Virus record (IMG/VR): IMGVR_UViG_3300045988_074874
Direction: 5' to 3' (one strand)
DNA: 64,000 bases
Source: a virus
Below are positions 1-55,216 of the stretch, one piece after another; position 1 is the first letter of the stretch, and each line of letters starts with the position of its first letter. The translations under genes and the position numbers were made by a program. The notes under the pieces are model-generated. The model did no database searches. It was not told where the DNA came from and was given only the letters and a program-made list of their open reading frames with translations.

Positions 1-72
1 TATAGTATAATAATATATATAGATATAGTATATGGCGTTATATGAGATTGACTAAAAATTTTAAATAAATAG

Positions 73-101
73 TTGACAGAACAACAACTTGTATGTTAAT
101 A
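73..101 (+). promoter_or_regulatory. candidate sigma70-type promoter (TTGACA, 17 nt spacer, TTAATA) upstream of terS-like gene
   Basis: TTGACA at 73-78 and TTAATA at 96-101 in an AT-rich leader ahead of the ORF at 246. Confidence 0.2.
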
Positions 102-245
102 CTGTTAATAGACACGAAAACGAAATATATTTTTTAACGCATTTTGCACAGGATAACAGGAGCCGGAACAATGGCTCACATGTTTTTCTGTGCTTTTTTA
201 TTTGCAATATTTTTATAGATTAACGTTGTAAAGTGAGGTGATACA

Positions 246-839
246 GTGAAAGATAATGCTATAAAAACAGAAAAGGAAACAGAAGTATATTTAAGCAATA
301 TTAATATATATGCTGATGAATATATTAATACAGTGTTATGTGTATCACCTGATAGTGAGAACTACAGAAAAGAAGTAGCTGACAGTTTTGTTGATATGAT
401 TTTTTATATCGCTGATCACATACAGAAACCTAGTAACGATGATATAGAATTATTAGATCATATGTTTAGCGTGTTTGTAAGGTTGTGCAGTAAGTATCAT
501 GTTTTGCCAACTCTGGAAGTATTTAGCTTTCTGGTAGGAATTAACCGTTCAACGTTTAGCGATTGGATGCGTGGGGATTATAGAACTGCCACAGCACATA
601 GCAACACGGTGAAAAAATGGTTCGATATTTGCAAAAACTGTACGCTTAATAGATTGCATAACCAGCCCGGAACAAATGCAAACTTAATTTTCGTAGCAAA
701 AGCTGCTTACGGCATGGCAGAGACGGCACCAATTCCAGCAGGACAGCAACAGGGCATACCACAGCAGACAGCGCAGCAGATCGCAGACAAGTACAAGGAT
801 GTTCTGGAGCTTCCAGAGATGGAAAAGCCGGAGTTATAA
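246..839 (+). CDS. terS: terminase small subunit-like protein (GTG start)
   Basis: 197 aa; C-terminal NANLIFVAKAAYGMAE matches the G-x-IF-x-LKN-x-GW signature of Terminase_2-type small subunits; RBS AAGTGAGGTGA; unusually far (8.5 kb) from terL. Confidence 0.45.
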   Translation: MKDNAIKTEKETEVYLSNINIYADEYINTVLCVSPDSENYRKEVADSFVDMIFYIADHIQKPSNDDIELLDHMFSVFVRLCSKYHVLPTLEVFSFLVGINRSTFSDWMRGDYRTATAHSNTVKKWFDICKNCTLNRLHNQPGTNANLIFVAKAAYGMAETAPIPAGQQQGIPQQTAQQIADKYKDVLELPEMEKPEL

Positions 840-1039
840 CAGCGTGGAACGTACACAAGATTGTTGAAATGTACGCAGATGGCGAACAAACAGACCGAAA
901 AGCGGTAGACATGGCAGTATTTAGTAAATATGCACATATATAACAGTTGAATTTGTGCATGATGTATAGCAGTCTATTTAAAAAACAAGTGTTTATTAAA
1001 TAGATGTAATATTCTGAAAATTGATACGCATTATAATTC

Positions 1040-1270
1040 CCTTGATTACCGCCGAAGGTATCCGAAAAACAGCGTTAAGACCGGGACAACGGGAACCCAT
1101 GGGGCAAAGGGTTGCCCGGTCAGCGTCACCAGAGACAGACCCGGGAGGGGGGTGTATATGGATGCCCCGAACGGCCTAATGAGTGCCCCGACCGCCCCAA
1201 AATTTAAAAAACGCCCTTTTAACAACAATCCCTCAACATGGCAGAGATAGTGATTGCAACATAACAAGCC
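1040..1270. other. GC-rich (~58% GC) structured non-coding element; candidate ncRNA or packaging site
   Basis: Compositional island in a ~37% GC genome; local hairpins such as GGGCAA-AGGG-TTGCCC and runs of GGGAGGGGGG/GCCCC; no plausible + strand ORF. Confidence 0.3.
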
Positions 1271-1322
1271 GTAAGCCTTAACGATTGATAATCACTGACA
1301 TCCGCAGAAAGGAAGGCACAAG

Positions 1323-2830: not shown

Positions 2831-3270
2831 GATTACCATTATCGCAGTAGCAATTAATATTCTGATATTTACTACATTAGCTGCATTTTTAATGAGCCGG
2901 AATTACAAAGGCAATCAATTTTCCACAGCATTCTTCTTGCTGATGGAAGCAGGAATGATACTTAATACAGTTTTGATTTGCACAGCGAGGTAAAAATATG
3001 CTTTTAGCATTTCCTACGAGGATTATTCCGTTTTTTATCATAGAACGGGTTAAACCTATAATTAAACCGGAAGGATACGCTTACCCGATTGTGGAGCGGT
3101 ACGCAAGCAAATATTCTTTACATCCGACTTAGCGTTAAAAAATTTCTGTAGTCGATTATATTAAATTTGATTTCCTCCACATATATTGTTTGCATTACAG
3201 AAATAGTAATTATATCACACACAATTCTTTCTCCTGCTTTTGTGATGGTGCGGAGTGGGAGAAAGATTTT

Positions 3271-3342
3271 AGGGCTATCGCCAAAAGGTAAGGTAACGGA
3301 CTTTGATTCCGTCATGTGTGGGTTCGAATCCCACTAGCCCCG
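3271..3342 (+). tRNA. tRNA-Gln (anticodon TTG)
   Basis: Hand-folded cloverleaf: acceptor AGGGCTA/TAGCCCC, anticodon stem ACGGA/TCCGT with loop CTTTGAT, T-arm GTGGG-TTCGAAT-CCCAC. Confidence 0.55.
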
Positions 3343-3398
3343 TTTGCTAGGTTGCGCATGTACCTGGCAATGGTTTATTTCACATAGACCCTCCGATA

Positions 3399-3451
3399 CC
3401 CATCTAGCTCAACGGAGCTGATTAAAGGGGCTTCAAATGTCCCGGATGGGA
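3399..3451 (+). other. tRNA-like mini-element lacking an anticodon arm (acceptor + D-like hairpin + T-arm)
   Basis: 7-bp acceptor CCCATCT/GGATGGG, hairpin AGCTC-AACG-GAGCT, T-arm GGGGC-TTCAAAT-GTCCC; only 53 nt. Confidence 0.35.
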
Positions 3452-3572
3452 ATCCTCGTAAAAACGAGGTACTCTATTTTGCCATGACCTTTGTTGCGGC
3501 TGGTGGCAAAGAACTGCAACAGTAGAAGCAAATCAACTCAAAATCTGCAATCCGGGAGACTGCTTCTACTCA

Positions 3573-3645
3573 GGAAATTTAGTTCAGCGGTTAGAACGCC
3601 CGGCTCATAACCGGGAAGCCCTGAGTTCGAATCTCAGAATTTCCA
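3573..3645 (+). tRNA. tRNA-Met/fMet/Ile2 (anticodon CAT)
   Basis: Clean cloverleaf: GGAAATT acceptor, GTTC-AGCGGTTAGAAC D-arm, CCCGG-CTCATAA-CCGGG anticodon arm, CTGAG-TTCGAAT-CTCAG T-arm. Confidence 0.8.
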
Positions 3646-4022
3646 TTTCTTCCGTATGCTACCCATCCGTTTTATGGGCAGAAAAAACTTTCGGATGAGC
3701 GTATGTGAATCAGAATGAGCAAAGGTATGTAACGGCATAGGCTTGTGCTTGATCTGATTTCCCGTCCGATAAATGCTTCTTAGTTTCAATAAGTCATCAT
3801 AAGTGCACGTTGATGGCAGGGAGTTTTCAAGAAGCATAAAGTTAAAAGGCATAATAATATCCGAAACAACTCCGTGGAGCATACCACGGTTACCAAAAAG
3901 CCGTCAGGTTGGCAAAAATACGATAGTCCAAGTTATGAAAAATTGCCTAGTGGAAAGCATAACACGAAAAAATCATTGCTAACCCGGAACAATCTCCGGG
4001 TTCTGGGGGAATAATACCATAA

Positions 4023-4075
4023 GGGGCAGAGGGCTGATTAACAGTACCAGAGCGGTTCAACTCCGCATTCTCCCA
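4023..4075 (+). other. possible second anticodon-arm-less tRNA-like element
   Basis: GGGGCAG acceptor-like 5' end, GCTG-ATTAA-CAGT hairpin, GCGG-TTCAACT-CCGC T-arm-like, TTCTCCC 3' end; pairing imperfect. Confidence 0.25.
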
Positions 4076-4175
4076 TTATCCAATCTGTAAATATTGGATA
4101 TGAGGAAGCTGTCCGAGATGTAAGAAACAGTCGGCTTGTGGATTGCCGGTACAAATACGCTGAAAATCCACACAA

Positions 4176-4247
4176 GGCAGGGTAGAGAAGTGGAATCTCA
4201 CAAGACTCATATTCTTGAGAACGGCGGTTCGAATCCGCCTCCTGCAA
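4176..4247 (+). tRNA. tRNA with CAT anticodon (Met/Ile2 type), G1-A72 mismatch
   Basis: GAGA-AGTGGAA-TCTC D-arm, CAAGA-CTCATAT-TCTTG anticodon arm, GGCGG-TTCGAAT-CCGCC T-arm, acceptor GGCAGGG/TCCTGCA. Confidence 0.55.
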
Positions 4248-4532
4248 CTTAATCCGCTTAGAGTTAAGTTGTTTGTATACAGGCGGTCTATGCCTCTGGT
4301 GGATTTACGCATGAGCGTAAACGTACAACTCACTAGGCGTTTGCGTAAAAAACTTTTTAGAGAGATGAGACCACTGGCCGTAAGAAGTGATAGTCGGCAA
4401 TTCTAAAAGAACCATCTAGTTCATGCGTTTTACGATGGAAAGGTTAATGCTTATCTGGATATTTGTGTCCAGTCCGAAAGCATATGAAGTGAAAATCAAC
4501 TCAGTTTTTTTAACTGACCGTGACAAGCGGTA

Positions 4533-4601
4533 CGGAATGTAGCTCAGGTGGGAGAGCGCACTACAAAAGTGAGGTCGCAGGTTCGAATCCTGCCTTTCCG
4601 A
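4533..4601 (+). ncRNA. tRNA-like RNA with truncated/non-canonical anticodon arm (69 nt)
   Basis: Canonical acceptor, D-arm (GCTC-AGGTGGGA-GAGC) and T-arm (GCAGG-TTCGAAT-CCTGC) but only 18 nt where 21-22 are needed, giving a 3-4 bp anticodon stem and a 5-7 nt loop. Confidence 0.4.
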
Positions 4602-9395: not shown

Positions 9396-11132
9396 ATGCA
9401 AAAATTCACAGAAGGTTCGCTTGAATGGTATCGGGCAATTTTAAATCAAATCATTAATGATGATATGACAGTCTGTCAAAATCAGAAGGACTGCCTTGAT
9501 TTACTTTTGAATATGAATATTGACCTTCCTTTCAAGGATAATCCAGATGCACGGAATATGGCAATGAAAGTCAGCCGGTACGCTCATACAACTGCGGCAA
9601 GAAACGCGGCACTGACTGGAAGCGGTAATTTTGATGATATTTACTGGCAGTATTTATTATTGGAAGCACAGAACTATCAGGTTGACAGCGGGCTTCTTTA
9701 CCTTGAAAAGAACCGAATCCCGAAAGAACGATTCTATGAACCACGAAGAAATGTGTTCTTGCAGCATAACATCATAGGTTCACTGCAAGACCTGATGGAT
9801 GACAAATTAGATATATTTGCATTAAGCGTACCTCCGGGTTGTGGAAAGAGTACTCTGGAAGATTTCTTTTTATCATTGGTAGGTGGATGGTTCCCGAATG
9901 ACTTTAACCTGTCTTCGGCACACAGTAGCATTCTGACACGTTCCCTTTATGATGGTGTTCTGGAAATTATCAATGATCCCGTGGAATACACGTGGCATGA
10001 GATATTCCCTAACGTAGAAATTCAAGGAACAAATGCAAAGGAAACTACAGTCAATCTCGAAAGAAACGGACGATTTAAGACATGGACATTTCGTTCTATT
10101 GATGGCTCTTTGACTGGTGCCACTAGATGCAATAGATTCCTTACTGCCGATGACCTTGTGTCTGGTATTGAAGAAGCTTTGAATAAGAACCGACTTGATA
10201 CCCTGTGGACAAAAGTGGTAAATGACTTGCGTTCCCGTAGACTTGAGGGATGCAAAGAGTTTTATATTGCCACCAGATGGTCAGTACATGACCCTATCGG
10301 AAAACTGCAACAACTATATGCCGGAAACCCACGGGCAAGGTTTATTGCAGTTCCAGCACTTGATGAAAACGGAAAGAGCAATTTTCTGTTTACGGTAAAT
10401 GGATTCTCAGAGAAATATTTCAATGATGCTAAAGAATCCATGGATGAAATTTCTTACAACTGTCTTTATCAGCAACAGCCGGTAGAACGTGAGGGATTAT
10501 TATTACCACCGGACAAATTAAAACGATTCTTTTTCAGTAAAGAAGACGTGCCGGATGGATGCGCGGATGAATACATTATCATTCCAGATAAAGATGCAGA
10601 TGCGATATGGGCGGTATGTGATACAAAAGATAAAGGAACTGACTTCGAATCATTACCGATTGCATACCAATACGGAGATAAATTCTTCTTTCCCGATGTG
10701 GTGTTTGATGACACTACAGACTATGACATTTTGGATAGAAAGACAGCAGATATTTTGGTAAGACATAACCCACATAAGATTCGTTTCGAATCAAATAATG
10801 TCGGAAACCGTGTGGCACACAATATCCAGAAAATGATTACCGGAAAGTGTCGAGCTGAAATTGAGACAAAACCAACGTCAGCAAATAAAGAAACAAAGAT
10901 TCTTGTAAATTCGGACTATATAGCAAAACATTTTTATTTTCTGCATCCAAGTCAGTACAAAGCAAAGTCTGATTACGGATTGTTTATGGCTAATGTAACT
11001 ACGTACACTACTAGGGCAAAAGTACCACATGATGACGGAATCGATTCTTTGGCTATGATGGCTGAGTACATACAAAATCCATTAGGTGGTAAAGCAACGG
11101 CAATGCAGAATCCATTTTGGGGAAGGAGATAG
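9396..11132 (+). CDS. terL: terminase large subunit
   Basis: 578 aa; Walker A LSVPPGCGKST, nuclease-domain acidic motifs (ATRWSVHD, DDGIDSL), position upstream of portal. Confidence 0.85.
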   Translation: MQKFTEGSLEWYRAILNQIINDDMTVCQNQKDCLDLLLNMNIDLPFKDNPDARNMAMKVSRYAHTTAARNAALTGSGNFDDIYWQYLLLEAQNYQVDSGLLYLEKNRIPKERFYEPRRNVFLQHNIIGSLQDLMDDKLDIFALSVPPGCGKSTLEDFFLSLVGGWFPNDFNLSSAHSSILTRSLYDGVLEIINDPVEYTWHEIFPNVEIQGTNAKETTVNLERNGRFKTWTFRSIDGSLTGATRCNRFLTADDLVSGIEEALNKNRLDTLWTKVVNDLRSRRLEGCKEFYIATRWSVHDPIGKLQQLYAGNPRARFIAVPALDENGKSNFLFTVNGFSEKYFNDAKESMDEISYNCLYQQQPVEREGLLLPPDKLKRFFFSKEDVPDGCADEYIIIPDKDADAIWAVCDTKDKGTDFESLPIAYQYGDKFFFPDVVFDDTTDYDILDRKTADILVRHNPHKIRFESNNVGNRVAHNIQKMITGKCRAEIETKPTSANKETKILVNSDYIAKHFYFLHPSQYKAKSDYGLFMANVTTYTTRAKVPHDDGIDSLAMMAEYIQNPLGGKATAMQNPFWGRR

Positions 11133-11672: not shown

Positions 11673-13160
11673 GTGGGAAGAAACAAAAGCAATTTTGTTG
11701 ACCTATGCCAAGGCGATTTTGGCAGAAAAACTGCCTACACTGGCGTAGCTCAAATTACTACCGAAAATGTTGTTCAAGTTCTATCTGATACGATTGGTAC
11801 ACATAATCGAAACAGAATGATGATTAATTATCTTTATCGGTACTACAAAGGCGACCAACCAATCTTATATCGGGAAAAGCTTGTGAGACCGGAAGTAAAT
11901 AATAGAGTTGTCGAAAATCACGCTCTGGAAGTTGTCAAGTTTAAGGCAGGACAAATATATGGAGAACCTATTCAATATGTCTGCAAAAAGAAAAAAGCAG
12001 ATAAAAAGATAAATGAGCAGGTCGACCTGCTGAATGATTATCTGGACGAAGCAAATGCGGATGCCCGAAATATTCAGCTTGGAATATACCAGAGTGCCGT
12101 AGGAACTGCATACAAGGCAATTCTACGAGAAGACGATTGGACAAAAGACCGTGATTTACCACCATTTAGAATTTTTATTCCGTATCCGGGAGATGTTTAT
12201 ATTGTTTATTCCAGAAACACAGGAAAAGCAATGCTATCTGTTCAAATATTGAAAGATGAAGAGAATCAGCAATATTATCTTTGCTATTCTTCAAATCAAT
12301 ATTTCAAGATAAAGAACGGACAAGTAACCGTCAGCGGCATTAATGGCTTTGGCGGAATCCCAATTATCGAGTATCCAAACAACCATGACCGGCTATCTGA
12401 TGTCGAAATTGCAATTACAGCATTTGATGCGATCAACAAGTATCAGTCGGATAGATTAAACGGTGTTGAACAGTTTGTTCAAGCATTTATGAAATTCAAA
12501 AACTGTGAAGTTGACGAGAATGAATTTTTGAAAATGGTCAAGCTAGGAGCAATATCTGTAAAAGATGCTGGAAACGGTGTTCAGTCAGATGTTGACTTGA
12601 TGACTGCGGAATTAAACCAGTCGGAGAGCCAAGTTGCTAAAGACGACATTTACAATAATATGCTGATTGTAGAAGCAATGCCAAACCGCCAGAGCAACAC
12701 CGGTGGTGATACTGGTAATGCTGTATATTTGCGTAATGGATGGGATTTTGCAGAGCGAGATGCCAAACTTGTTGAAGCATTCACAAAAGAAGCCGAAAAA
12801 GCTTCTGTCAGAATTATTCTCAACATCATTCGCAAAACCTCCAATGATGTCAAGATTTCTACCAGAGATTTTGATGTCAAAATCACCAGAAACCCAACAG
12901 ATAACATGCTTGTTAAAGCACAGGCACTTGATTATCTGTTCAAGAATAAAATTCACCCGCTTATTGCATTGATTACTTGTGGATTATTCAGCGATCCGCA
13001 AAAGGTATATGAAATGAGCTTACCATATCTTGGAACTGTTTATCCCGAACTGGCAAACCCAGACGCAGAAATGAAGAAAGCACAAGAATTGATTAAAGAT
13101 TTTAGTCAGAAATCAATTCAAAATCAATCAGCAACAATTTCTTCCACTGGTGAAGAATAG
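11673..13160 (+). CDS. portal protein (SPP1 gp6-like), GTG start
   Basis: 495 aa, immediately after terL; portal-like size and composition. Confidence 0.7.
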   Translation: MGRNKSNFVDLCQGDFGRKTAYTGVAQITTENVVQVLSDTIGTHNRNRMMINYLYRYYKGDQPILYREKLVRPEVNNRVVENHALEVVKFKAGQIYGEPIQYVCKKKKADKKINEQVDLLNDYLDEANADARNIQLGIYQSAVGTAYKAILREDDWTKDRDLPPFRIFIPYPGDVYIVYSRNTGKAMLSVQILKDEENQQYYLCYSSNQYFKIKNGQVTVSGINGFGGIPIIEYPNNHDRLSDVEIAITAFDAINKYQSDRLNGVEQFVQAFMKFKNCEVDENEFLKMVKLGAISVKDAGNGVQSDVDLMTAELNQSESQVAKDDIYNNMLIVEAMPNRQSNTGGDTGNAVYLRNGWDFAERDAKLVEAFTKEAEKASVRIILNIIRKTSNDVKISTRDFDVKITRNPTDNMLVKAQALDYLFKNKIHPLIALITCGLFSDPQKVYEMSLPYLGTVYPELANPDAEMKKAQELIKDFSQKSIQNQSATISSTGEE

Positions 13161-29293: not shown

Positions 29294-32200
29294 ATGCTTC
29301 AATCTAACTTTGCATCCCTTGGTAGAACAATAGGTTCCTTGTTCATTCCTATACTGCAAACAGTACTTCCATATATCAATGCAATTGTAATCGCATTACA
29401 AAGAATGTTTGCTTATATTGCAAAATTGCTTGGAATCAAACTGTCAAACTTTGTATCATCTACTGGTGGTATTTCTGTAAATACCGGAGATATTGCAGAT
29501 AATATGGATAATGCCAGTGGTGCAATTGACAATGCCAATACCAGTGCAAAAAAACTCGAAAAAACATTGTCAGTTCTTTCATTTGATGAACTGAATCAGC
29601 TTAATGACAATTCTGATTCTGGTAGTACAAGTAATCCATCTTCTGGCTCTGGCGGTGGCGCATCACATCTTCCGGCGCTTGATGCTGCTTTAGATGATGC
29701 TTTATCTGCATATCAAAAAGCATGGGACGAAGCTTTTAAAAAGATGTCCAATAGGGCAAATGAAATGGCAGATGCCATTGTAAATGCCTTTAAGAGAAAA
29801 GACTGGAAAGGTCTTGGAAAAATCATGGCTGATGGCATCAACTGGGGGATGCAAAAGCTTTATGATTTCATTAACTGGAATAACGTAGGTCCTTACATCA
29901 CTAAATTCACCAGTGCGTTCACCCAGACTTTCAACAGCCTTGTTGATAATATCAACTGGGATTTGATGGGACGTACCGTTGGAGCTGGTATTAATACAAT
30001 AGTTAATACAGCCAATCAGTTACTTGAGGGAACGAATTTCAAAAACCTTGGTAAGAAATTTGCAGAAGGTATTACAGGCTTAGTTCGTGAAGTTGATTGG
30101 ACTAATTTTGGAAACATGCTTGGAAACAATTTTATGAAAGCATGGGATGTGCTTACGGGATTTGTCGAAAACCTTCCATATAGTGAAATTGGTCAGTCTG
30201 TAGCAACTGGATTAAATGGAATCTTTGAGAAAGTAGATTTTGGAGAAATAGCACATGCGCTTGCAACAGGTTTAAACGGAGCTTTTGATTCGTTAGATGC
30301 ATTTACAGAAACATTCGACTGGAATGAACTGGTTGATAATATTACAAATGGTATTGTGACATTCATGCAGGAATTTGACTGGAAAGAGAATGGACAGAAA
30401 CTTGAAAATTTTATCAATCATCTCTTAACATCATTAATTGACATCGCAGAAGGTGTTGATTGGGAAGCGTTTGGACACAATGTAGGCGTATTCCTCAGTG
30501 AAATTGACTGGGGAAAACATCTTGCACAGTTACTTACGGTTATCGGAGACGTTCTTGGTGGAATCTGGGAAGGACTTGGAACAACATCTGCTGGCACATT
30601 TGTTCAGGCAATGGCTGTTTTTGCTATTGGTGACAAATTAATGCCACTCGTTGACACCATTACCAAATTCTTTACAGGCGATACTGTTTTTGGAAATCTT
30701 TCTAAAGCTGTACAAGGTATGCTGAGTCCCGCAATCACAGAAGCTGTAGCGACAACTATTCCAGCTCTTGGTACTTCCTTGGGTGCGCTTGTGGCAACTG
30801 GTGGTGGAATTGCTCTTGCAGTAGGTGGTGCAGTATTACTTACCAAGAAATTAGCAGGACTTTTTGAGACCATGCAAGGTGGTAATGGAATGACTACACA
30901 GTATGGTGGTTATCTCCATGATTACGCAACACAGCTGACTGATGTAGCGAATCTTACAAACGATCAATCGGAAGCGTTGTGGCAGCTGATTGAGAAGGAT
31001 GAAGAACTTGGAAAAACTCACGATGAAATGTACTCTGATATGGTTGAAAAGCTTAAAGAATACGGAGTGTCCACAGATCAGGCAAAAACCGCTCTTGAGC
31101 AGTATGGCGCACAGGCAGGTGTATCGGCTGAATTTGTTGAAGGCATGACCGATCAAATTTCTGCTCTTGGAGAAGGTGTGTCTGAAGCTGCAAGTAAATT
31201 TGATACATCAAAAATAAGTGTCGATAATTTGAAAGATACTCTGTACGCATTGAGCCTTTCTTCTACAGAATTCGGAGGTAATTATACGACGGCATGGAAT
31301 GCAATAAGCGAAGTACCTTATAGCAACACAAAAGATGCATTAGACGCGGTCTACACTTCTCTCAAAAACGCAGGTGTTCCACTTGACGAACTTGATAAGA
31401 AGTTAAGAGAAGATTTTCCAGAAGCAACTGTAGCTACTAAATCAGCAGTAGACAAGAATATTGTTGGAGCGCAGCAGACTATTTCAACATCAGTTGGACA
31501 AGCATCTAAAGATACAAAGACAGCCACAAATGAAATGGCAAAAAATGCCACAGATGATTTCTCGGAAATTCAGAAACAAGCCGATACTTACATGAAAGGC
31601 ATGGAAAGCACAACTACTAGCTCATGGGGCAACTCTTCCAGAGAAGCTACATTGAAAGCCAGGGAAATGAAGAATGCCGTAAGCACAGAACTCGGGAACA
31701 TGGACAAATCTGTAACAAGCCATTTCCAAAGTCAGTACAACATTGCTTATAAGAAATGGGAGAATATCGGAAGAGATATTTCTTCCTACATTTCAAAGGA
31801 CATGAACAACAAAATTGGCAGTTCCTTGAACAGTGTTGTAGATACAATCAAGAGCAAGTTTGCCGGGTTGTATAATGTCGGCAAAAATGCAATGCAAGAA
31901 CTGTCAAACGGCATGAAATCTGTCCATATCAGTACACCGCATATGTGGATGAACATGAACGCTTCCACAAGCGGAAACCACTATTCCTACAACTGGGATT
32001 CTGGTGTAAACTGGTACAAGAGAGGCGGTCTGTTTGATTCCGCATCTGTTATCGGTGTCGGTGAAGCCGGAAAAGAAGCTGTATTACCGCTTGAAAACCA
32101 AAAGGCTATGAAGGATATAGCCGACAGCATTATGTCTGGCTATGACGGCAATATGGGTCTCAGCAAGGAAGACATTATGGAAGCTGTTGAGCGTGGCGTA

Positions 32201-32353
32201 GTTACTGCTTTGATGAACAATGGTGGCTTTGGTGGTTCTTCACCAGAGTACATCATGAACAGCATAAAAGTGAACGAGCGTGAACTGGCACGAATCGTCA
32301 CAAAAGCGCAAAATAATACAGATTACCGTATGAATCCGTCACCTGTGTATTGA
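29294..32353 (+). CDS. tape measure protein, C-terminal part (exon 2 probably begins near 29270)
   Basis: In-frame upstream codons read NQPANQIRM, the canonical TMP motif; TM helices then a long repetitive region. Confidence 0.55.
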   Translation: MLQSNFASLGRTIGSLFIPILQTVLPYINAIVIALQRMFAYIAKLLGIKLSNFVSSTGGISVNTGDIADNMDNASGAIDNANTSAKKLEKTLSVLSFDELNQLNDNSDSGSTSNPSSGSGGGASHLPALDAALDDALSAYQKAWDEAFKKMSNRANEMADAIVNAFKRKDWKGLGKIMADGINWGMQKLYDFINWNNVGPYITKFTSAFTQTFNSLVDNINWDLMGRTVGAGINTIVNTANQLLEGTNFKNLGKKFAEGITGLVREVDWTNFGNMLGNNFMKAWDVLTGFVENLPYSEIGQSVATGLNGIFEKVDFGEIAHALATGLNGAFDSLDAFTETFDWNELVDNITNGIVTFMQEFDWKENGQKLENFINHLLTSLIDIAEGVDWEAFGHNVGVFLSEIDWGKHLAQLLTVIGDVLGGIWEGLGTTSAGTFVQAMAVFAIGDKLMPLVDTITKFFTGDTVFGNLSKAVQGMLSPAITEAVATTIPALGTSLGALVATGGGIALAVGGAVLLTKKLAGLFETMQGGNGMTTQYGGYLHDYATQLTDVANLTNDQSEALWQLIEKDEELGKTHDEMYSDMVEKLKEYGVSTDQAKTALEQYGAQAGVSAEFVEGMTDQISALGEGVSEAASKFDTSKISVDNLKDTLYALSLSSTEFGGNYTTAWNAISEVPYSNTKDALDAVYTSLKNAGVPLDELDKKLREDFPEATVATKSAVDKNIVGAQQTISTSVGQASKDTKTATNEMAKNATDDFSEIQKQADTYMKGMESTTTSSWGNSSREATLKAREMKNAVSTELGNMDKSVTSHFQSQYNIAYKKWENIGRDISSYISKDMNNKIGSSLNSVVDTIKSKFAGLYNVGKNAMQELSNGMKSVHISTPHMWMNMNASTSGNHYSYNWDSGVNWYKRGGLFDSASVIGVGEAGKEAVLPLENQKAMKDIADSIMSGYDGNMGLSKEDIMEAVERGVVTALMNNGGFGGSSPEYIMNSIKVNERELARIVTKAQNNTDYRMNPSPVY

Positions 32354-32464: not shown

Positions 32465-32578
32465 TTTGGTAAAACCAACAGGCTAGACCGATCATCGAAA
32501 AGCGGAAATGCCTTGCCGCCTGCCTGTTGATTTACATACATTTCAAGGCATCTTATATACGAAAGGCAGGTATTTTCT

Positions 32579-33784
32579 ATGGAAAGAATTCCTATTAGTA
32601 AGAAAATTAGATTTGAAGTATTTAAAAGAGATCAATTTACATGTCAGTACTGTGGACGCATGGCTCCAGATGTAATATTAGAAGTTGACCATATCGATCC
32701 AGTGGCAGAAGGCGGCACCAATGATATTATGAATTTAATCACATCATGCCGGGATTGTAATAGAGGGAAAGGCAAAAATAAACTTTCCGATAAAAAAATT
32801 ATATCATTGCAACAACAATCTTTAAAAGAATTAGCTGAAAAAAGAGAGCAGCTCGAAATGGTTGCTGAATGGAAGAAAGAATTGTTGAATTACAACACCC
32901 AAGCAATTAATATGCTTTCAGATTATTTTGAGCAATTAACTGGTTCTAGTGTGAACGAACATGGCAGAAATAATATTAATGTATGGTTAAAACGTTTTGG
33001 AGTAGAAAAAATAATGACTGCCATGGAAAATTCTGTAAAAACATATTGTAAAGAGTTTTCATATGAAGAAATTGAAAAAGCTTTTAAAAAGATTCCTGGA
33101 GTTTGTATAAATTGTGAAAAAGGAAATAGTTCGCAAATTTATTATTTTAATTACATAAAGAAAGTCCTTAACTCCAAGAATATAAAATTTGATTTGAAGT
33201 TATTGAAATATTATGTCGATACTTATTTGGTTTCCGATGATGCTTTCGAAGAAGAGAAAAAAACGAAAAGATATATTAAAATGTTCGAAAATAGAAAATT
33301 TGATATTAGCATAAAAAAAGTACAAGACAGAATTATGCAAAATTGTTATATACCTATGGGTGACATTGACTGTAAGAAAACGATTGAAAATCTTAAATAT
33401 GGTTTAAATACGAATCATAAAGGATATTTTTTCTCGGACAGGTATTCGCTTCAGAACAGAATTGATTTAAAACCATACGTTAAAAATTTTATTGAATTTA
33501 TTGAAGAATTTTACAAAGAATATTACAACACATTTAACGAACCTCATCCCAAATTAACCATCGAACAATGTTTAAAATTATTGAACAGATATGCTTGGAA
33601 TGCGTATTGGGGCTTAGCGACCAAAGAAACTTATCGTAATATGTCTTTTGTTCTTTCGATTGGAAAAGAGATGAATTCGAAAGTTCGAATAATGGAAGCC
33701 ATGTCCGCTTGCGGCACGGGGATATGCCGGGAAAAATATGAAGAATATGAATCAGAAAAGGGTACACATAAATTTGAATGTTGA
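32579..33784 (+). CDS. HNH endonuclease (free-standing, 401 aa)
   Basis: N-terminal CQYCG...DHIDPVAEGGTNDIMNLITSCRDCNRGKG HNH motif. Confidence 0.65.
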   Translation: MERIPISKKIRFEVFKRDQFTCQYCGRMAPDVILEVDHIDPVAEGGTNDIMNLITSCRDCNRGKGKNKLSDKKIISLQQQSLKELAEKREQLEMVAEWKKELLNYNTQAINMLSDYFEQLTGSSVNEHGRNNINVWLKRFGVEKIMTAMENSVKTYCKEFSYEEIEKAFKKIPGVCINCEKGNSSQIYYFNYIKKVLNSKNIKFDLKLLKYYVDTYLVSDDAFEEEKKTKRYIKMFENRKFDISIKKVQDRIMQNCYIPMGDIDCKKTIENLKYGLNTNHKGYFFSDRYSLQNRIDLKPYVKNFIEFIEEFYKEYYNTFNEPHPKLTIEQCLKLLNRYAWNAYWGLATKETYRNMSFVLSIGKEMNSKVRIMEAMSACGTGICREKYEEYESEKGTHKFEC

Positions 33785-54196: not shown

Positions 54197-55216
54197 ATGG
54201 ATAAAGAAATTGTTGCAAATTTTGAGAATTTATATCGTTCTTACAAAAAGGTTAAGAGCGGTAAGAAATTTAATTCAGGTACTGCAAGATTTTCTAATTT
54301 GTCTCTTGAAGGCATTCATCTCTTGAAGGAACAATTGGAAAGTCAAACGTATACCATAAATCCGTATAATAAATTTCAAATTCATGAGCCAAAAGAGCGA
54401 ACGATAGAATCATGTGCATTTAAGGACAAAGTAGTGCAGAGATGCTTTTCTGATTACATTCTGACACCAAAACTTGAAAATATCCTGATTAAATGGAACA
54501 CTGCCGGGCAGCAAGGAAAAGGACAACATATGGCGATGGATGGATTAAGAGATCAGATGTTGAATTTCTATAAAAGAAATGGAATGAATAGTTGGATTGT
54601 AAAATGTGATATTCATAAATATTTTTACAACATAGACCATGAAATTATGAAAGACGTGCTGGACTATTATTTTGATGATAGTTTTACGACTTGGCTGAAT
54701 CATTTGTTTATCGATAGTACAGATAATCCGGGAATTCCATTAGGGAATCAGGTAAATCAGAAATACGCTCTTTTGTTGTTACATTCATTGGATCAAATGA
54801 TAACGATTGAATTTGGAAATCCATATTACGGACGATACAACGATGATTTTTATGTGATTTGTAAAACGAAAGAAGATGCCAGAGAAATTCTTGAAGCAAT
54901 CCGAATGATGATTGAAAGCCTTAGACTGGAACTAAACCCTAAATCACAAATTGTACCGTTTCGCATGGGATTGTGTTATCTGGGCTTTCATCATTACGTG
55001 ACTGATAAAGGAAAATATATCAGAAAATTGCGTGGCGATAAGAAAAGAAAAACACAGAGAAAAATCCGCAGGTGGGTACGGACAGTAAATGACGGAAAGA
55101 TGTCAATGGAAAAATTTAATGAAAAGTATGGAGCATGTAAGAACCATATGCTTCATGGGGACTGCATTAAATTATGCCACAGTATGGATTTAGAAATTGA
55201 AAGGAGAATGAAGTGA
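54197..55216 (+). CDS. reverse transcriptase, DGR type
   Basis: Motifs: VKCDIHKYFYNIDHEIM (RT motif 1/2), PLGNQVNQ (DGR-type I/LGxxxSQ variant), RYNDDFYV (YxDD), LELNPKSQI. Confidence 0.8.
   Translation: MDKEIVANFENLYRSYKKVKSGKKFNSGTARFSNLSLEGIHLLKEQLESQTYTINPYNKFQIHEPKERTIESCAFKDKVVQRCFSDYILTPKLENILIKWNTAGQQGKGQHMAMDGLRDQMLNFYKRNGMNSWIVKCDIHKYFYNIDHEIMKDVLDYYFDDSFTTWLNHLFIDSTDNPGIPLGNQVNQKYALLLLHSLDQMITIEFGNPYYGRYNDDFYVICKTKEDAREILEAIRMMIESLRLELNPKSQIVPFRMGLCYLGFHHYVTDKGKYIRKLRGDKKRKTQRKIRRWVRTVNDGKMSMEKFNEKYGACKNHMLHGDCIKLCHSMDLEIERRMK

What the first reader, a model, noticed from the sequence alone, without database searches (positions are those of the whole stretch)
1040..1270. GC-rich structured island just downstream of the terS-like gene
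About 230 nt at ~58% GC in a ~37% GC genome. It has no credible ORF and contains nested hairpins (GGGCAA-AGGG-TTGCCC; CCGGGAC...GACCCGGGAGGGGGG; GCCCCGA...GCCCCGACCGCCCC). Composition and position suggest a structured RNA (ribozyme, riboswitch-like leader or sRNA) or a packaging-initiation site.
Basis: seen in the sequence. Interest (0 to 1): 0.5.

Follow-up and report, generated by a model that had tools for sequence, protein, structure and literature searches.

The report
Conserved hairpin element beside phage terS-like gene
The GC-rich patch is real and is one copy of a non-coding, hairpin-forming element found at the same spot (just after a terminase-small-subunit-like gene) in more than 200 related human-gut phage contigs. 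It matches no described RNA family, most likely works as a folded RNA, and its function is still unknown.

Summary
Window 1038-1220 is the most GC-rich stretch of the 64 kb (63% against 39%). It is non-coding and occurs once. It is not a chance island. About 210 IMG/VR contigs of an ~80-kb gut phage family carry a homologous element 141-212 nt after the stop of the same terS-like gene, while the genes downstream vary.

The element is modular:
- a GCC-GNA-GGC mini-hairpin;
- a long irregular hairpin (window 1072-1126) whose stems occur in six sequence versions that stay complementary, and whose 20-nt G-rich tip (CCCAUGGGGC) is nearly invariant;
- two further small hairpins and a G5/UAUAUA/C5 hairpin;
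- an A-rich tail.

A second covarying fold ('module C') follows at 1239-1300.

No Rfam family matches. Single-sequence folding energy is no better than shuffled sequence.

Best reading, confidence about 0.45: a cis-acting structured RNA on the + strand of the terS-to-downstream transcript, recognised at its conserved loop by a protein or RNase. Packaging-site, stand-alone ncRNA and single-stranded-DNA readings are not excluded. Hybrid and deletion variants (17 contigs) show the main helix is not indispensable.

The parts
1032..1037 (+). TATAAT, a -10-like hexamer 7 nt before the point where conservation begins. A possible promoter, with no good -35.
   Evidence: Read directly in the sequence. 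Many variants have an nAnnnT hexamer at the same offset. The consensus scan found no two-hexamer promoter here or in L047. This is inference only.
1038..1050 (+). Conserved 5' motif UCCCUUGAYYACC, which marks the start of the element.
   Evidence: Alignments. The pattern CCTTGANNACNGCCGNAGGC retrieved almost only this phage family from IMG/VR.
1051..1059 (+). P1 mini-hairpin GCC-GAA-GGU (3 bp plus a G-N-A triloop).
   Evidence: In 211 copies the loops are GAA 137, GCA 68, GUA 2, AAU 3 and AAA 1. The stem is GCC/GGC, with a G.U variant in the window.
1070..1126 (+). Main hairpin. P2a is 1072-1076 with 1122-1126 (GCGUU/AGCGU, two G.U pairs). P2 is 1079-1085 with 1115-1121. A1086 is a bulge. P3 is 1087-1090 with 1111-1114. 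The apical loop is 1091-1110 and contains CCCAUGGGGC (1096-1105).
   Evidence: Covariance model R1 gives a single hit in the window: 80.9 bits, E = 1e-15. It gives one hit in each of 50 loci. Pair counts are, per-sequence folds and the register-aware count.
1129..1145 (+). P4, a small hairpin. It is weak in the window type (CCAG..CCGG). It is clear in other types: CCGG-CAUGGAUA-CCGG, CUGG-AUGA-CCGG, CCUGG..CUAGG.
1147..1168 (+). P5 hairpin, with a G-run (5-7 G) pairing to a C-run across a UAUAUA-type loop.
   Evidence: It is a unique pattern in the window. Variants are listed. In L223 and L409 the orientation is swapped, C5 first and G4 after.
1171..1220 (+). P6 region (GCC..RUGAGU..), a C-rich stretch and an A-rich tail (CCCCAAAAUUUAAAAAACGCCCUUUU).
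   Evidence: The tail CCCGAAAAAAYAAAAAAGC is shared by all types and by the short versions.
1239..1300 (+). Module C, a second structured unit. The window carries a rearranged variant in which AGUGAUU 1249-1255 pairs with AAUCACU 1290-1296.
   Evidence: In relatives the canonical form is a 9-bp outer helix, a 3-bp hairpin with a 7-nt loop, and a 6-bp helix seen in four compensated versions. It is present after the island in 62 of 86 unique loci.
246..839 (+). The terS-like ORF to which the element is always linked.
   Evidence: phrog_606 at E = 0.003 only. No Pfam, PDB sequence or fold match. The element starts 141-212 nt after this gene's end in 198 of 212 copies. The six other copies with enough upstream flank to examine follow a divergent homologue; the other eight were not examined, and several sit too close to a locus end.

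Best explanation
The island is one copy of a conserved, modular, non-coding element that acts as folded RNA on the + strand. It lies in the transcript running from the terS-like gene into the variable accessory-gene cluster, either as the 3' UTR of the former or as the 5' leader of the latter.

Its core is a roughly 16-bp irregular hairpin presenting an almost invariant 20-nt G-rich loop (GGGAACCCAUGGGGCAAAGG in the window). Around it are a GNA-triloop mini-hairpin, two small hairpins, a G5/C5 hairpin with a UAUAUA loop, and an A-rich tail.

The most likely mechanism is cis control of the fate of that transcript. A phage or host protein or RNase would recognise the conserved loop on a stem whose sequence is free to change. 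It would then either process or stabilise the mRNA, or make the transcribing polymerase read through the terminators and tRNA genes that follow.

Shown here: conservation, fixed position, non-coding nature, compensated stems and conserved loops.
Inferred: transcription, the strand, the binding partner and the regulatory outcome.
For: Presence and position
- The element is present in every relative examined, always after the terS-like gene.
- It is more conserved (92-100% identity) than the body of the neighbouring gene, which can be as little as 27-64% identical.

Stems change while loops stay
- There are six stem versions, A to F. P2 reads GACCGGG/CCCGGUC, AUCCGGU/ACCGGAU, GGCAAG/CUUGCC, CCAGGG/CCCUGG, ACCGGA/UCCGGU. 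P3 reads CAAC/GUUG, CAGC/GCUG, AAGC/GCUU, CGGC/GUCG.
- Tool count: 86.2% of cells paired against 73.8% in shuffles, 7 of 11 pairs changed on both sides, covariation 0.320 against 0.143 (0 of 500 shuffles), and slid controls at 51% or less.
- Register-aware count: mean 6.43 of 7 pairs against 5.27 +/- 0.12 when the 5' and 3' halves are re-dealt.
- P5 occurs with swapped G and C arms.

Support for the + strand
- G.U pairs sit at fixed places in P2a, and both become A.U in L100 and L114.
- The hairpin is more stable on the + strand in 45 of 49 unique sequences, with mean ddG -3.4 kcal/mol.
- Module C has widespread G.U pairs that would be C.A on the other strand.
- All neighbouring genes are on the + strand.

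Non-coding
-.

Single copy per genome region
-.
Against: - There are no expression data.
- No consistent sigma-70-type promoter or terminator brackets the element.
- Single-sequence MFE is no better than shuffles.
- For the whole 175-nt element the - strand folds better in 72 of 111 unique sequences.
- Single substitutions in P2/P3 give G.U on the + strand five times and on the - strand four times (my reading).
- A hybrid lineage of 13 contigs (L036 type) has non-complementary arms, with 4 of 7 pairs.
- Four contigs (L056 x2, L362, L376) have lost the hairpin. Short versions (L021, L026, L029, L039, L049, L353-L358) keep only P5, P6 and the tail. So the main helix is dispensable in nature.
- There are only about six independent stem types, several of them built on the self-complementary CCGG core. 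The covariation is therefore real but shallow.
Confidence: 0.45

Rival explanations
1. It is a DNA recognition site for packaging: a pac-type site bound by the terS-like protein. The conserved blocks (CAGCG repeats, CCCATGGGGC, GCCGAAGGC) would be the binding sites, and the A-tract would provide a bend.
For: - Linkage to the terS-like gene is strict. 198 of 212 copies lie 141-212 nt after its stop, and the six other copies with enough flank to examine follow a divergent homologue.
- The 3' end of that gene and the island travel together as one mosaic block.
- CAGCG occurs at 1070 and 1121, about five helical turns apart.
- An A-rich tail is present in all versions.
Against: - Double-stranded DNA sites do not need compensated stems, and stems here change while keeping complementarity.
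- The same hairpin type goes with terS-like proteins whose helix-turn-helix regions differ. Type A goes with 100, 72-75, 64 and 27% identical proteins. Near-identical proteins go with types A and B. L086-like proteins go with types A and D.
- 11 of 80 related contigs end in the AT-rich stretch upstream of the gene, and only one ends in the island.
- The terS assignment rests on one weak PHROG hit (E = 0.003). The model (mean pLDDT 65) found no fold match.
Confidence: 0.17
2. It is a stand-alone trans-acting non-coding RNA. Examples would be a self-associating RNA that dimerises through the self-complementary CCCAUGGG loop, a protein sponge, or a component of a phage ribonucleoprotein such as a packaging RNA.
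For: - The downstream neighbours are unrelated from one phage to the next. In 29 of 86 unique loci a convergent gene with its terminator follows, so there is no fixed gene to regulate in cis.
- CCCAUGGG is a perfect palindrome displayed in a large apical loop, and it occurs once in 64 kb.
- Conserved loops on variable stems are typical of RNAs bound by partners.
Against: - No + strand terminator follows the element in the window or in L047.
- Loop variants break the palindrome without compensation: CCCACGGG, CACAUGGG, CCCAUUGG.
- There is no evidence of a discrete transcript.
Confidence: 0.15
3. It acts as folded single-stranded DNA or a cruciform. Examples would be a lagging-strand or primosome-type initiation signal, or a site for structure-specific recombination that drives exchange of the variable gene cassettes next to it.
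For: - Compensated stems are equally expected for folded DNA.
- C-GNA-G triloop mini-hairpins are unusually stable in DNA (my own knowledge). Here the loop varies only as GAA, GCA or GUA in 207 of 211 copies.
- YAGCGU resembles the CS-6 TAGCGT of ssoA origins (my own knowledge, not tested).
- The element sits at the edge of a hypervariable region, and a small serine recombinase lies 0.5-1.5 kb downstream in 84 relatives.
- Wobble counts do not favour one strand.
Against: - The window lacks the recombinase but keeps the element.
- There is no second copy or inverted partner site in 64 kb.
- The fixed G.U(T) pairs in P2a and module C would be poor in DNA.
- No similarity to any plasmid record.
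- No Rep or HUH gene was noticed among the ORFs scanned.
Confidence: 0.1
4. It has no function of its own. It would be a GC-rich selfish insertion, or a relic kept by hitch-hiking with the terS-like 3' end and shuffled by recombination.
For: - Hybrid, deleted and short versions persist in nature.
- Its composition is foreign to the genome.
- It has a mosaic distribution.
Against: - It is present in every relative, at one position only and in a single copy.
- The 20-nt loop is nearly invariant across stem types that have diverged by about 30%, and the stems remain compensated.
- No copies are found elsewhere in phage or plasmid collections.
Confidence: 0.08

Closest known systems
Processive antitermination RNAs (HK022 put; Bacillus EAR; conAn-type leaders of Gram-positive conjugative elements)
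   Same: - Cis-acting stem-loop arrays of about 70-300 nt.
- They lie inside or at the head of a very long one-directional operon, upstream of terminators and inserted genes.
- Here all genes from 246 to about 41 kb are on the + strand, with tRNAs and variable inserted genes just downstream.
The properties of these families are from my own knowledge.
   Different: No sequence or Rfam match, EAR included. Read-through was not tested. The element follows the first gene rather than directly following a mapped promoter.
RNase III processing and retroregulation hairpins in phage polycistronic mRNAs (T7 R sites, lambda sib)
   Same: Intercistronic, irregular hairpins of about 16-20 bp with bulges, placed just after a gene. 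They set mRNA 3' ends and stability (my own knowledge). The main hairpin here is 16 bp in three segments.
   Different: Those sites are recognised mainly by helix shape. Here a 20-nt apical loop is the most conserved part. That points to a sequence-specific partner. Cleavage was not tested.
phi29 pRNA (packaging RNA)
   Same: A phage-encoded structured RNA functionally tied to the packaging machinery, which multimerises through loop-loop pairing (my own knowledge). Here there is strict linkage to a terS-like gene and a palindromic loop.
   Different: No match to the Rfam pRNA model. This is a different phage type, about 80 kb with TerL, portal and tape measure genes. The palindrome is not maintained by compensation. 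The resemblance is a lead only.
Orphan candidate structured RNAs of phage metagenomes (for example the 8,495 IMG/VR csRNAs of PMC10690425)
   Same: The same kind of object: a covarying intergenic motif found only in uncultivated gut phages, with function unknown.
   Different: I could not check whether this motif is already in that catalogue, because no supplementary files are held.

Membership tests
Any Rfam 15 family (ribozymes, riboswitches, sRNAs, pRNA, EAR, ROOL/GOLLD etc.) | Covariance-model score at or above the family's gathering threshold | tested here: not met
   Whole window at gathering score: only 4 tRNAs and int-alpA. Region 850-1450 at E<=10: only a chance snoRNA hit at 1314-1398. 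Five relatives of the other types at E<=1: nothing in the element.
Rho-independent terminator | GC-rich hairpin followed directly by a U-run on the transcribed strand | tested here: not met
   The scan finds none at 1000-1330. The hairpins are followed by an A-rich tail, not a U-rich one.
Metabolite riboswitch | Conserved aptamer upstream of a consistent set of functionally related genes, with an expression platform (terminator or SD sequestration) | tested here: not met
   The downstream genes differ: a 69-aa ORF, RHH, HNH, Bro-N/ANT, HTH, and a convergent gene. No terminator is present. Module C, not the island, has possible SD-sequestering pairings.
pac/cos packaging site | Genome termini or the packaging series start at or next to the site | tested here: inconclusive
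   The only proxy available is contig ends. 11 of 80 fall 75-735 nt upstream of the terS-like gene, and one falls in the island. Raw reads are not available.
pac/cos packaging site | Site specificity co-varies with the DNA-binding domain of TerS | tested here: not met
   Hairpin types A to D are combined freely with terS-like variants. Conserved motifs shared by all types could still be the target.
pac/cos packaging site | The neighbouring gene is a genuine small terminase | tested here: inconclusive
   phrog_606 at E = 0.003 only. No Pfam or PDB match. The AF2 model has pLDDT 65 and no Foldseek hit with E<=0.001.
Processive antitermination RNA (put/EAR-like) | Promoter-proximal RNA that makes RNA polymerase read through downstream terminators | not testable with these tools
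   Only the context fits: a long one-directional gene array, with tRNAs and inserted genes downstream.
phi29-type pRNA | Intermolecular loop-loop complementarity maintained by covariation, and binding to the portal | tested here: not met
   The loop palindrome CCCAUGGG is present. Natural variants break it without compensation. There is no Rfam pRNA hit. Portal binding cannot be tested.
ssoA-type single-strand origin | Long imperfect hairpin with RSB and CS-6 (TAGCGT) motifs, on a rolling-circle replicon | tested here: inconclusive
   TAGCGU or CAGCGU lies at the 3' foot of the hairpin. That is not in a terminal loop, which is where I recall CS-6 sitting. No similarity to plasmid records. No Rep gene was seen.
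Protein-coding gene or small ORF | Open frame with a start codon conserved across relatives | tested here: not met
   A 23-30-aa ORF ending at 1250 exists only in type A. 123 contigs with module C lack it. Homopolymer length polymorphism is present.

The most novel reading that the evidence does not exclude
The element is an RNA cofactor or control element functionally coupled to the small-terminase-like gene, in one of two forms. It could be a packaging-associated RNA that multimerises through its palindromic loop. That would be the first pRNA-like molecule outside phi29-like phages. Or it could be a new class of processive antitermination RNA that lets a 40-kb late operon tolerate inserted genes, tRNAs and terminators.
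Probability: 0.1. Interest if true: 0.85.

Novelty: new member of a known kind. Interest (0 to 1): 0.5.

Why it matters
This phage family is common in human gut viromes. There are 418 relatives in IMG/VR from one protein query, and 1,256 protein clusters of the linked gene in public data.

A non-coding element that every member keeps at one position is likely to control something central, such as expression of early or accessory genes, mRNA fate or packaging. It keeps its loop sequences conserved and its stems compensated. It also borders a hot spot where accessory genes are swapped.

It gives a concrete and easily synthesised RNA of about 180 nt, plus a 60-nt partner module, for structure probing and pull-downs. 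It would also be a candidate new Rfam family.

If it turns out to be a DNA site instead, it would define the packaging or recombination signal of an uncultivated phage group.

Tried and rejected
1. Known RNA families: none match.
2. tRNA or tmRNA: none in the island.
3. Thermodynamic signal: absent.
4. Repeats or a second copy in the window: none.
5. Similarity to GenBank phages or plasmids: none, apart from an unrelated 190-nt hit at 2643-2832.
6. Small ORF MDAPNGLMSAPTAPKFKKRPFNNNPSTWQR (1158-1250): rejected because it is confined to type A.
7. Minus-strand ORF 1046-1267: rejected because of frame-breaking G-run polymorphism.
8. The pattern CAGCG-N14-26-CCCATGGGGC was too loose. The single genome-contig scan returned chance hits in GC-rich bacteria, and none matched the element by BLAST. 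The host and any prophage copies therefore remain unknown.
9. MAFFT and RNAalifold on the hairpin recover only P3. Type D has no bulge and falls out of register. The CM-based alignment has the same problem, so understates the pairing. I counted with free register.
10. Strand from wobble pairs: indecisive for single mutations, favourable to the + strand for fixed G.U pairs.
11. Structure of the terS-like protein: low-confidence model, no fold match.
12. Catalogue of phage csRNAs: supplements are not held.
13. attP or integrase link: rejected. The ORF after int-alpA is an HNH endonuclease and lies 31 kb away.
14. G-quadruplex: a canonical G3+ N1-7 x4 motif is present in types A and D only, so it is not a conserved feature (my reading).
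Full report
**The observation**

The window is a phage genome segment. All long ORFs from 246 to about 41 kb lie on the + strand. They include TerL (9396-11132), portal (11673-13160), tape measure (29294-32353), a tail protein and an endolysin.

- 100-nt windows reach 62-66% GC at 1051-1200.
- The highest 150-nt GC value anywhere in the 64 kb starts at 1049: 63.3%, z = 4.6, against a window mean of 39.1%.
1040-1270 is 53.7% GC and the genome is 39%.
- ORFs in the region are all 73 aa or shorter.
- As a single sequence the region folds no better than dinucleotide shuffles on either strand: z = +1.17 and +0.46.

No Rfam 15 family matches, neither at gathering score over the whole window nor at E<=10 over 850-1450. 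ARAGORN finds tRNAs only at 3270-4601. The sequence occurs once in the window.

**Relatives**

The protein of the upstream ORF (246-839) retrieved 418 related places in IMG/VR, of which 80 were kept. Exact DNA motifs from the island retrieved many more. Almost all come from human-gut datasets and from contigs of about 75-85 kb.

Every relative has a GC-rich patch 150-350 nt after the stop of the homologous gene. The island is 92-100% identical in loci whose upstream protein is only 27-75% identical to the window's. Conversely, loci with 92-95% identical proteins carry a different island type. The explanation is mosaicism. The last 25-30 codons of the gene, the spacer and the island form one block that recombines with different gene bodies.

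In 198 of 212 copies the element starts 141-212 nt (median 152) after the gene's end. The six other copies with enough upstream flank to examine follow a divergent homologue with a different C-terminus. The other eight were not examined, and several lie too close to a locus end.

The downstream side is variable. It can hold a 69-aa ORF and an RHH gene (window), an HNH gene, Bro-N/ANT, an HTH gene, or a convergent DUF6471 gene with its terminator. In 84 loci a small serine recombinase lies 0.5-1.5 kb away, and the window lacks it.

GenBank phages and PLSDB plasmids contain nothing similar.

**Anatomy (window coordinates)**

Conservation starts at UCCCUUGAUUACC (1038-1050), directly after a TATAAT (1032-1037). 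The parts that follow are listed below.

- *P1* (1051-1059) is GCC-GAA-GGU. In 211 copies the triloop is GAA (137), GCA (68), GUA (2), AAU (3) or AAA (1). That is essentially G-N-A.
- *The main hairpin* spans 1070-1126.
  - P2a is 1072-1076 with 1122-1126, with two G.U pairs.
  - P2 is 1079-1085 with 1115-1121.
  - A1086 is a bulge.
  - P3 is 1087-1090 with 1111-1114.
  - The 20-nt apical loop is 1091-1110.
- *P4* is a small hairpin. It is weak in the window type and clear in the others.
- *P5* (1147-1168) pairs a G-run with a C-run across a UAUAUA-type loop.
- *P6* follows, then a C-rich stretch and an A-rich tail ending near 1220.
- *Module C* is a second unit. It is found after the island in 62 of 86 unique loci and directly precedes the Shine-Dalgarno sequence of whatever gene comes next.
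  - It has a 9-bp outer helix, UGGCAGRGA with UCUCUGCCA.
  - It has a 3-bp hairpin with a 7-nt loop.
  - It has a 6-bp helix whose middle pairs occur as CCGU/ACGG, CAGU/ACUG, CCAU/AUGG and CGGU/ACCG.
  - The window has a rearranged version at 1239-1300.

**Evidence for structure**

Among 208 contigs the main hairpin occurs as 49 distinct sequences falling into six stem types.

| Type | 5' strand (P2, bulge, P3) | 3' strand (P3, bulge, P2) |
|---|---|---|
| A | GACCGGG-A-CAAC | GUUG-CCCGGUC |
| B | AUCCGGU-G-CAGC | GCUG-ACCGGAU |
| C | GGCAAG-GG-CAGC | GCUG-A-CUUGCC |
| D | CCAGGGAAGC | GCUUCCCUGG |
| E | ACCGGA-G-CAGC | GCUG-UCCGGU |
| F | GACCGGG-U-CGGC | GUCG-CCCGGUU |

The loop GGGWWCCCAUGGGGCRRYGG hardly changes across these types.

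A covariance model built on this hairpin finds exactly one hit in the window (80.9 bits) and one in each of 50 loci. Counts on that alignment are:
- 86.2% of cells are standard pairs, against 73.8 +/- 1.1% in shuffles (0 of 500 reach it);
- 7 of 11 pairs change on both sides;
- the covariation score is 0.320 against 0.143 (0 of 500);
- slid controls pair 51% or less.

This understates the pairing. Type D lacks the bulge and sits one column out of register, and RNAalifold recovers only P3 for the same reason. Allowing the register to float, 186 of 208 contigs have 4 of 4 pairs in P3 and at least 6 of 7 in P2. The mean is 6.43 of 7, against 5.27 +/- 0.12 (maximum 5.67 in 1000 trials) when the 5' and 3' halves are re-dealt.

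The margin is moderate because several types share the self-complementary CCGG core. The signal comes from about six lineages, not dozens.

P5 gives an independent hint. L223 and L409 have C5...G4 where the others have G5...C4-5.

**Which strand, RNA or DNA?**

For the + strand as RNA:
- All flanking genes are on the + strand.
- P2a contains two fixed G.U pairs. In L100 and L114 both G residues have become A, giving A.U pairs.
- The hairpin is more stable on the + strand in 45 of 49 unique sequences, with mean difference -3.4 kcal/mol.
- Module C has common G.U pairs (GGCAGGGA with UCUCUGCC; AAGC with GUUU) that would be C.A mismatches on the other strand.

Against, or neutral:
- Over the whole 175 nt the - strand has the lower MFE in 72 of 111 sequences.
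- Single substitutions in P2/P3 produce G.U on the + strand five times (L042 type, L011, L108 type, L111, L166) and on the - strand four times (L017, L023, L194, L223). This is my reading.
- No consistent promoter or terminator is detected.
- The TATAAT at 1032-1037 lacks a -35, and other variants have only nAnnnT hexamers at that offset.

Transcription may therefore come from the promoter upstream of the terS-like gene. There a TTGACA-17-TTAATA motif at 73-105 and a terminator-like hairpin at 160-177 form a short leader.

**Limits on the structural requirement**

- A hybrid lineage (L036 type, 13 contigs) joins a type D 5' arm to a type C 3' arm and keeps only 4 of 7 P2 pairs. L184 is another imperfect hybrid.
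- Four contigs have lost the hairpin. In L056 (x2) the loss lies between GACCGGG direct repeats. The others are L362 and L376.
- Short versions retain only P5, P6 and the A-rich tail, and some are followed at once by an HNH gene. They are L021, L026, L029, L039, L049 and the MT835477 group L353-L358.

The most widely shared core is therefore the 3' half. The large hairpin is an add-on that most lineages keep, but not all.

**What it is not**

- *A protein-coding gene.* An SD-preceded 23-30-aa ORF ending at 1250 exists only in type A, and 123 contigs with module C have no such ORF. G-run length polymorphism breaks the minus-strand ORF.
- *A terminator.* An A-rich tail follows the hairpins, not a U-run.
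- *A metabolite riboswitch.* The downstream genes are unrelated to one another.
- *An attP site.* The ORF after the int-alpA RNA at 32.5 kb is an HNH endonuclease, not an integrase.

**Packaging-site idea**

The linkage to the terS-like gene is the one strong argument. Against it:
- The stems are compensated.
- Stem type does not co-vary with the helix-turn-helix region of the protein.
- Contig ends cluster in an AT-rich low-complexity stretch 75-735 nt upstream of the gene (11 of 80, plus the window itself). Only one contig ends in the island.
- The terS assignment is weak. It rests on phrog_606 at E = 0.003. There is no Pfam or PDB hit. The AlphaFold model has mean pLDDT 65 and no Foldseek match at E<=0.001.

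Conserved motifs common to all types could still be protein-binding DNA, so I keep this rival at about 0.17.

**Most likely mechanism**

I favour a cis-acting RNA element in the transcript that leaves the terS-like gene and enters the variable gene cluster. Its conserved apical loop, and probably the GNA triloop and the UAUAUA loop, would be read by a protein or RNase, while the stems serve only as scaffolds.

The outcome could be processing or stabilisation of the upstream message. It could also be terminator-resistant transcription through the tRNAs, inserted genes and convergent terminators that follow.

Conservation, position, non-coding nature and stem compensation are shown. Transcription, the partner and the outcome are inferred. 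Confidence is about 0.45 for 'cis-acting structured RNA', and much lower for any one outcome.

**Comparison with known systems**

Functionally the nearest analogues are processive antitermination RNAs (put, EAR, conAn leaders) and RNase III or retroregulation hairpins of phage mRNAs. phi29 pRNA is a more remote analogue suggested by the terminase linkage and the palindromic loop. None is matched by sequence or model, and their defining activities cannot be tested here.

The element is best filed as a new orphan structured motif of gut phages. It may already be listed among the IMG/VR csRNAs of PMC10690425, which I could not check.

**Verdict**

The feature is real, conserved, probably an RNA-level element, and of unknown function. 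It is a solid lead for RNA biologists but not a demonstrated novelty of kind. Interest 0.5.

Noticed in passing
window 73-190: A TTGACA-17-TTAATA promoter-like site (73-105) is followed by a GC hairpin at 160-177 and a T-run, just upstream of the terS-like ORF. It looks like a short leader or attenuator, in a lambda PR'-tR'-like arrangement.
   Followed up: no
window 1239-1300; canonical form e.g. L010, L034, L085: 'Module C' is a roughly 58-nt three-helix fold with four compensated versions of one helix and frequent G.U pairs. It lies immediately upstream of the Shine-Dalgarno sequence of whichever gene follows (Bro-N/ANT, HTH, serine recombinase). It has possible alternative pairings with the SD region. 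No Rfam match.
   Followed up: partly
window 32476-33784: An int-alpA RNA (RF02996, 45 bits) sits directly in front of a 401-aa HNH endonuclease ORF. That ORF is wedged between the tape-measure gene and the following tail genes. No integrase is involved.
   Followed up: no
window 52934-55216: A reverse transcriptase gene (phrog_1423, 54197-55216) is preceded by two tandem paralogous ORFs (phrog_9958). These share 82%-identical 38- and 33-nt repeats about 600 nt apart. The layout is like a diversity-generating retroelement. The mismatches I looked at were not clearly adenine-specific.
   Followed up: partly
window 46572-47142: About 21 head-to-tail copies of a 27-nt unit lie inside ORF 46297-47274 (phrog_4433/27197). 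It is the second most GC-rich stretch of the window.
   Followed up: no
window 1-60 and starts of L017, L020, L028, L033, L034, L037, L049, L069, L071, L080: Eleven of 80 related contigs, and the window itself, begin or end in the AT-rich low-complexity stretch 75-735 nt upstream of the terS-like gene. L020 starts with Nextera adapter sequence. This is either an assembly weak point or a physical genome end.
   Followed up: partly
L047 5290-5919 and 83 other loci; absent from the window: A small serine recombinase (Resolvase plus HTH_7) lies 0.5-1.5 kb downstream of the element in most relatives, inside the variable gene cluster. A second class, 32-35% identical, starts right after module C in L010, L025 and L167.
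   Followed up: partly
window 750-839 and homologues: The last 25-30 residues of the terS-like protein (..QQTAQQIADKYKDVLELPEMEKPEL) are identical in variants that are otherwise 27% identical. This is a sharp mosaic junction inside the gene.
   Followed up: no
window 3270-4601: A cluster of four tRNA genes: Gln-UUG, two Met-CAU, and Cys with anticodon ACA as called by ARAGORN. It lies 2 kb downstream of the island.
   Followed up: no
window 950-1015 and relatives: Between the terS-like stop and the element there are two alternative conserved spacers. One has an AU-rich inverted repeat, UCUAUUUAA..UUAAAUAGA in the window. The other has AGGGUGUAC-type and TTGTGCAATAT motifs, the latter fitting TRTG-n-AATATT, an extended -10-like site.
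   Followed up: no
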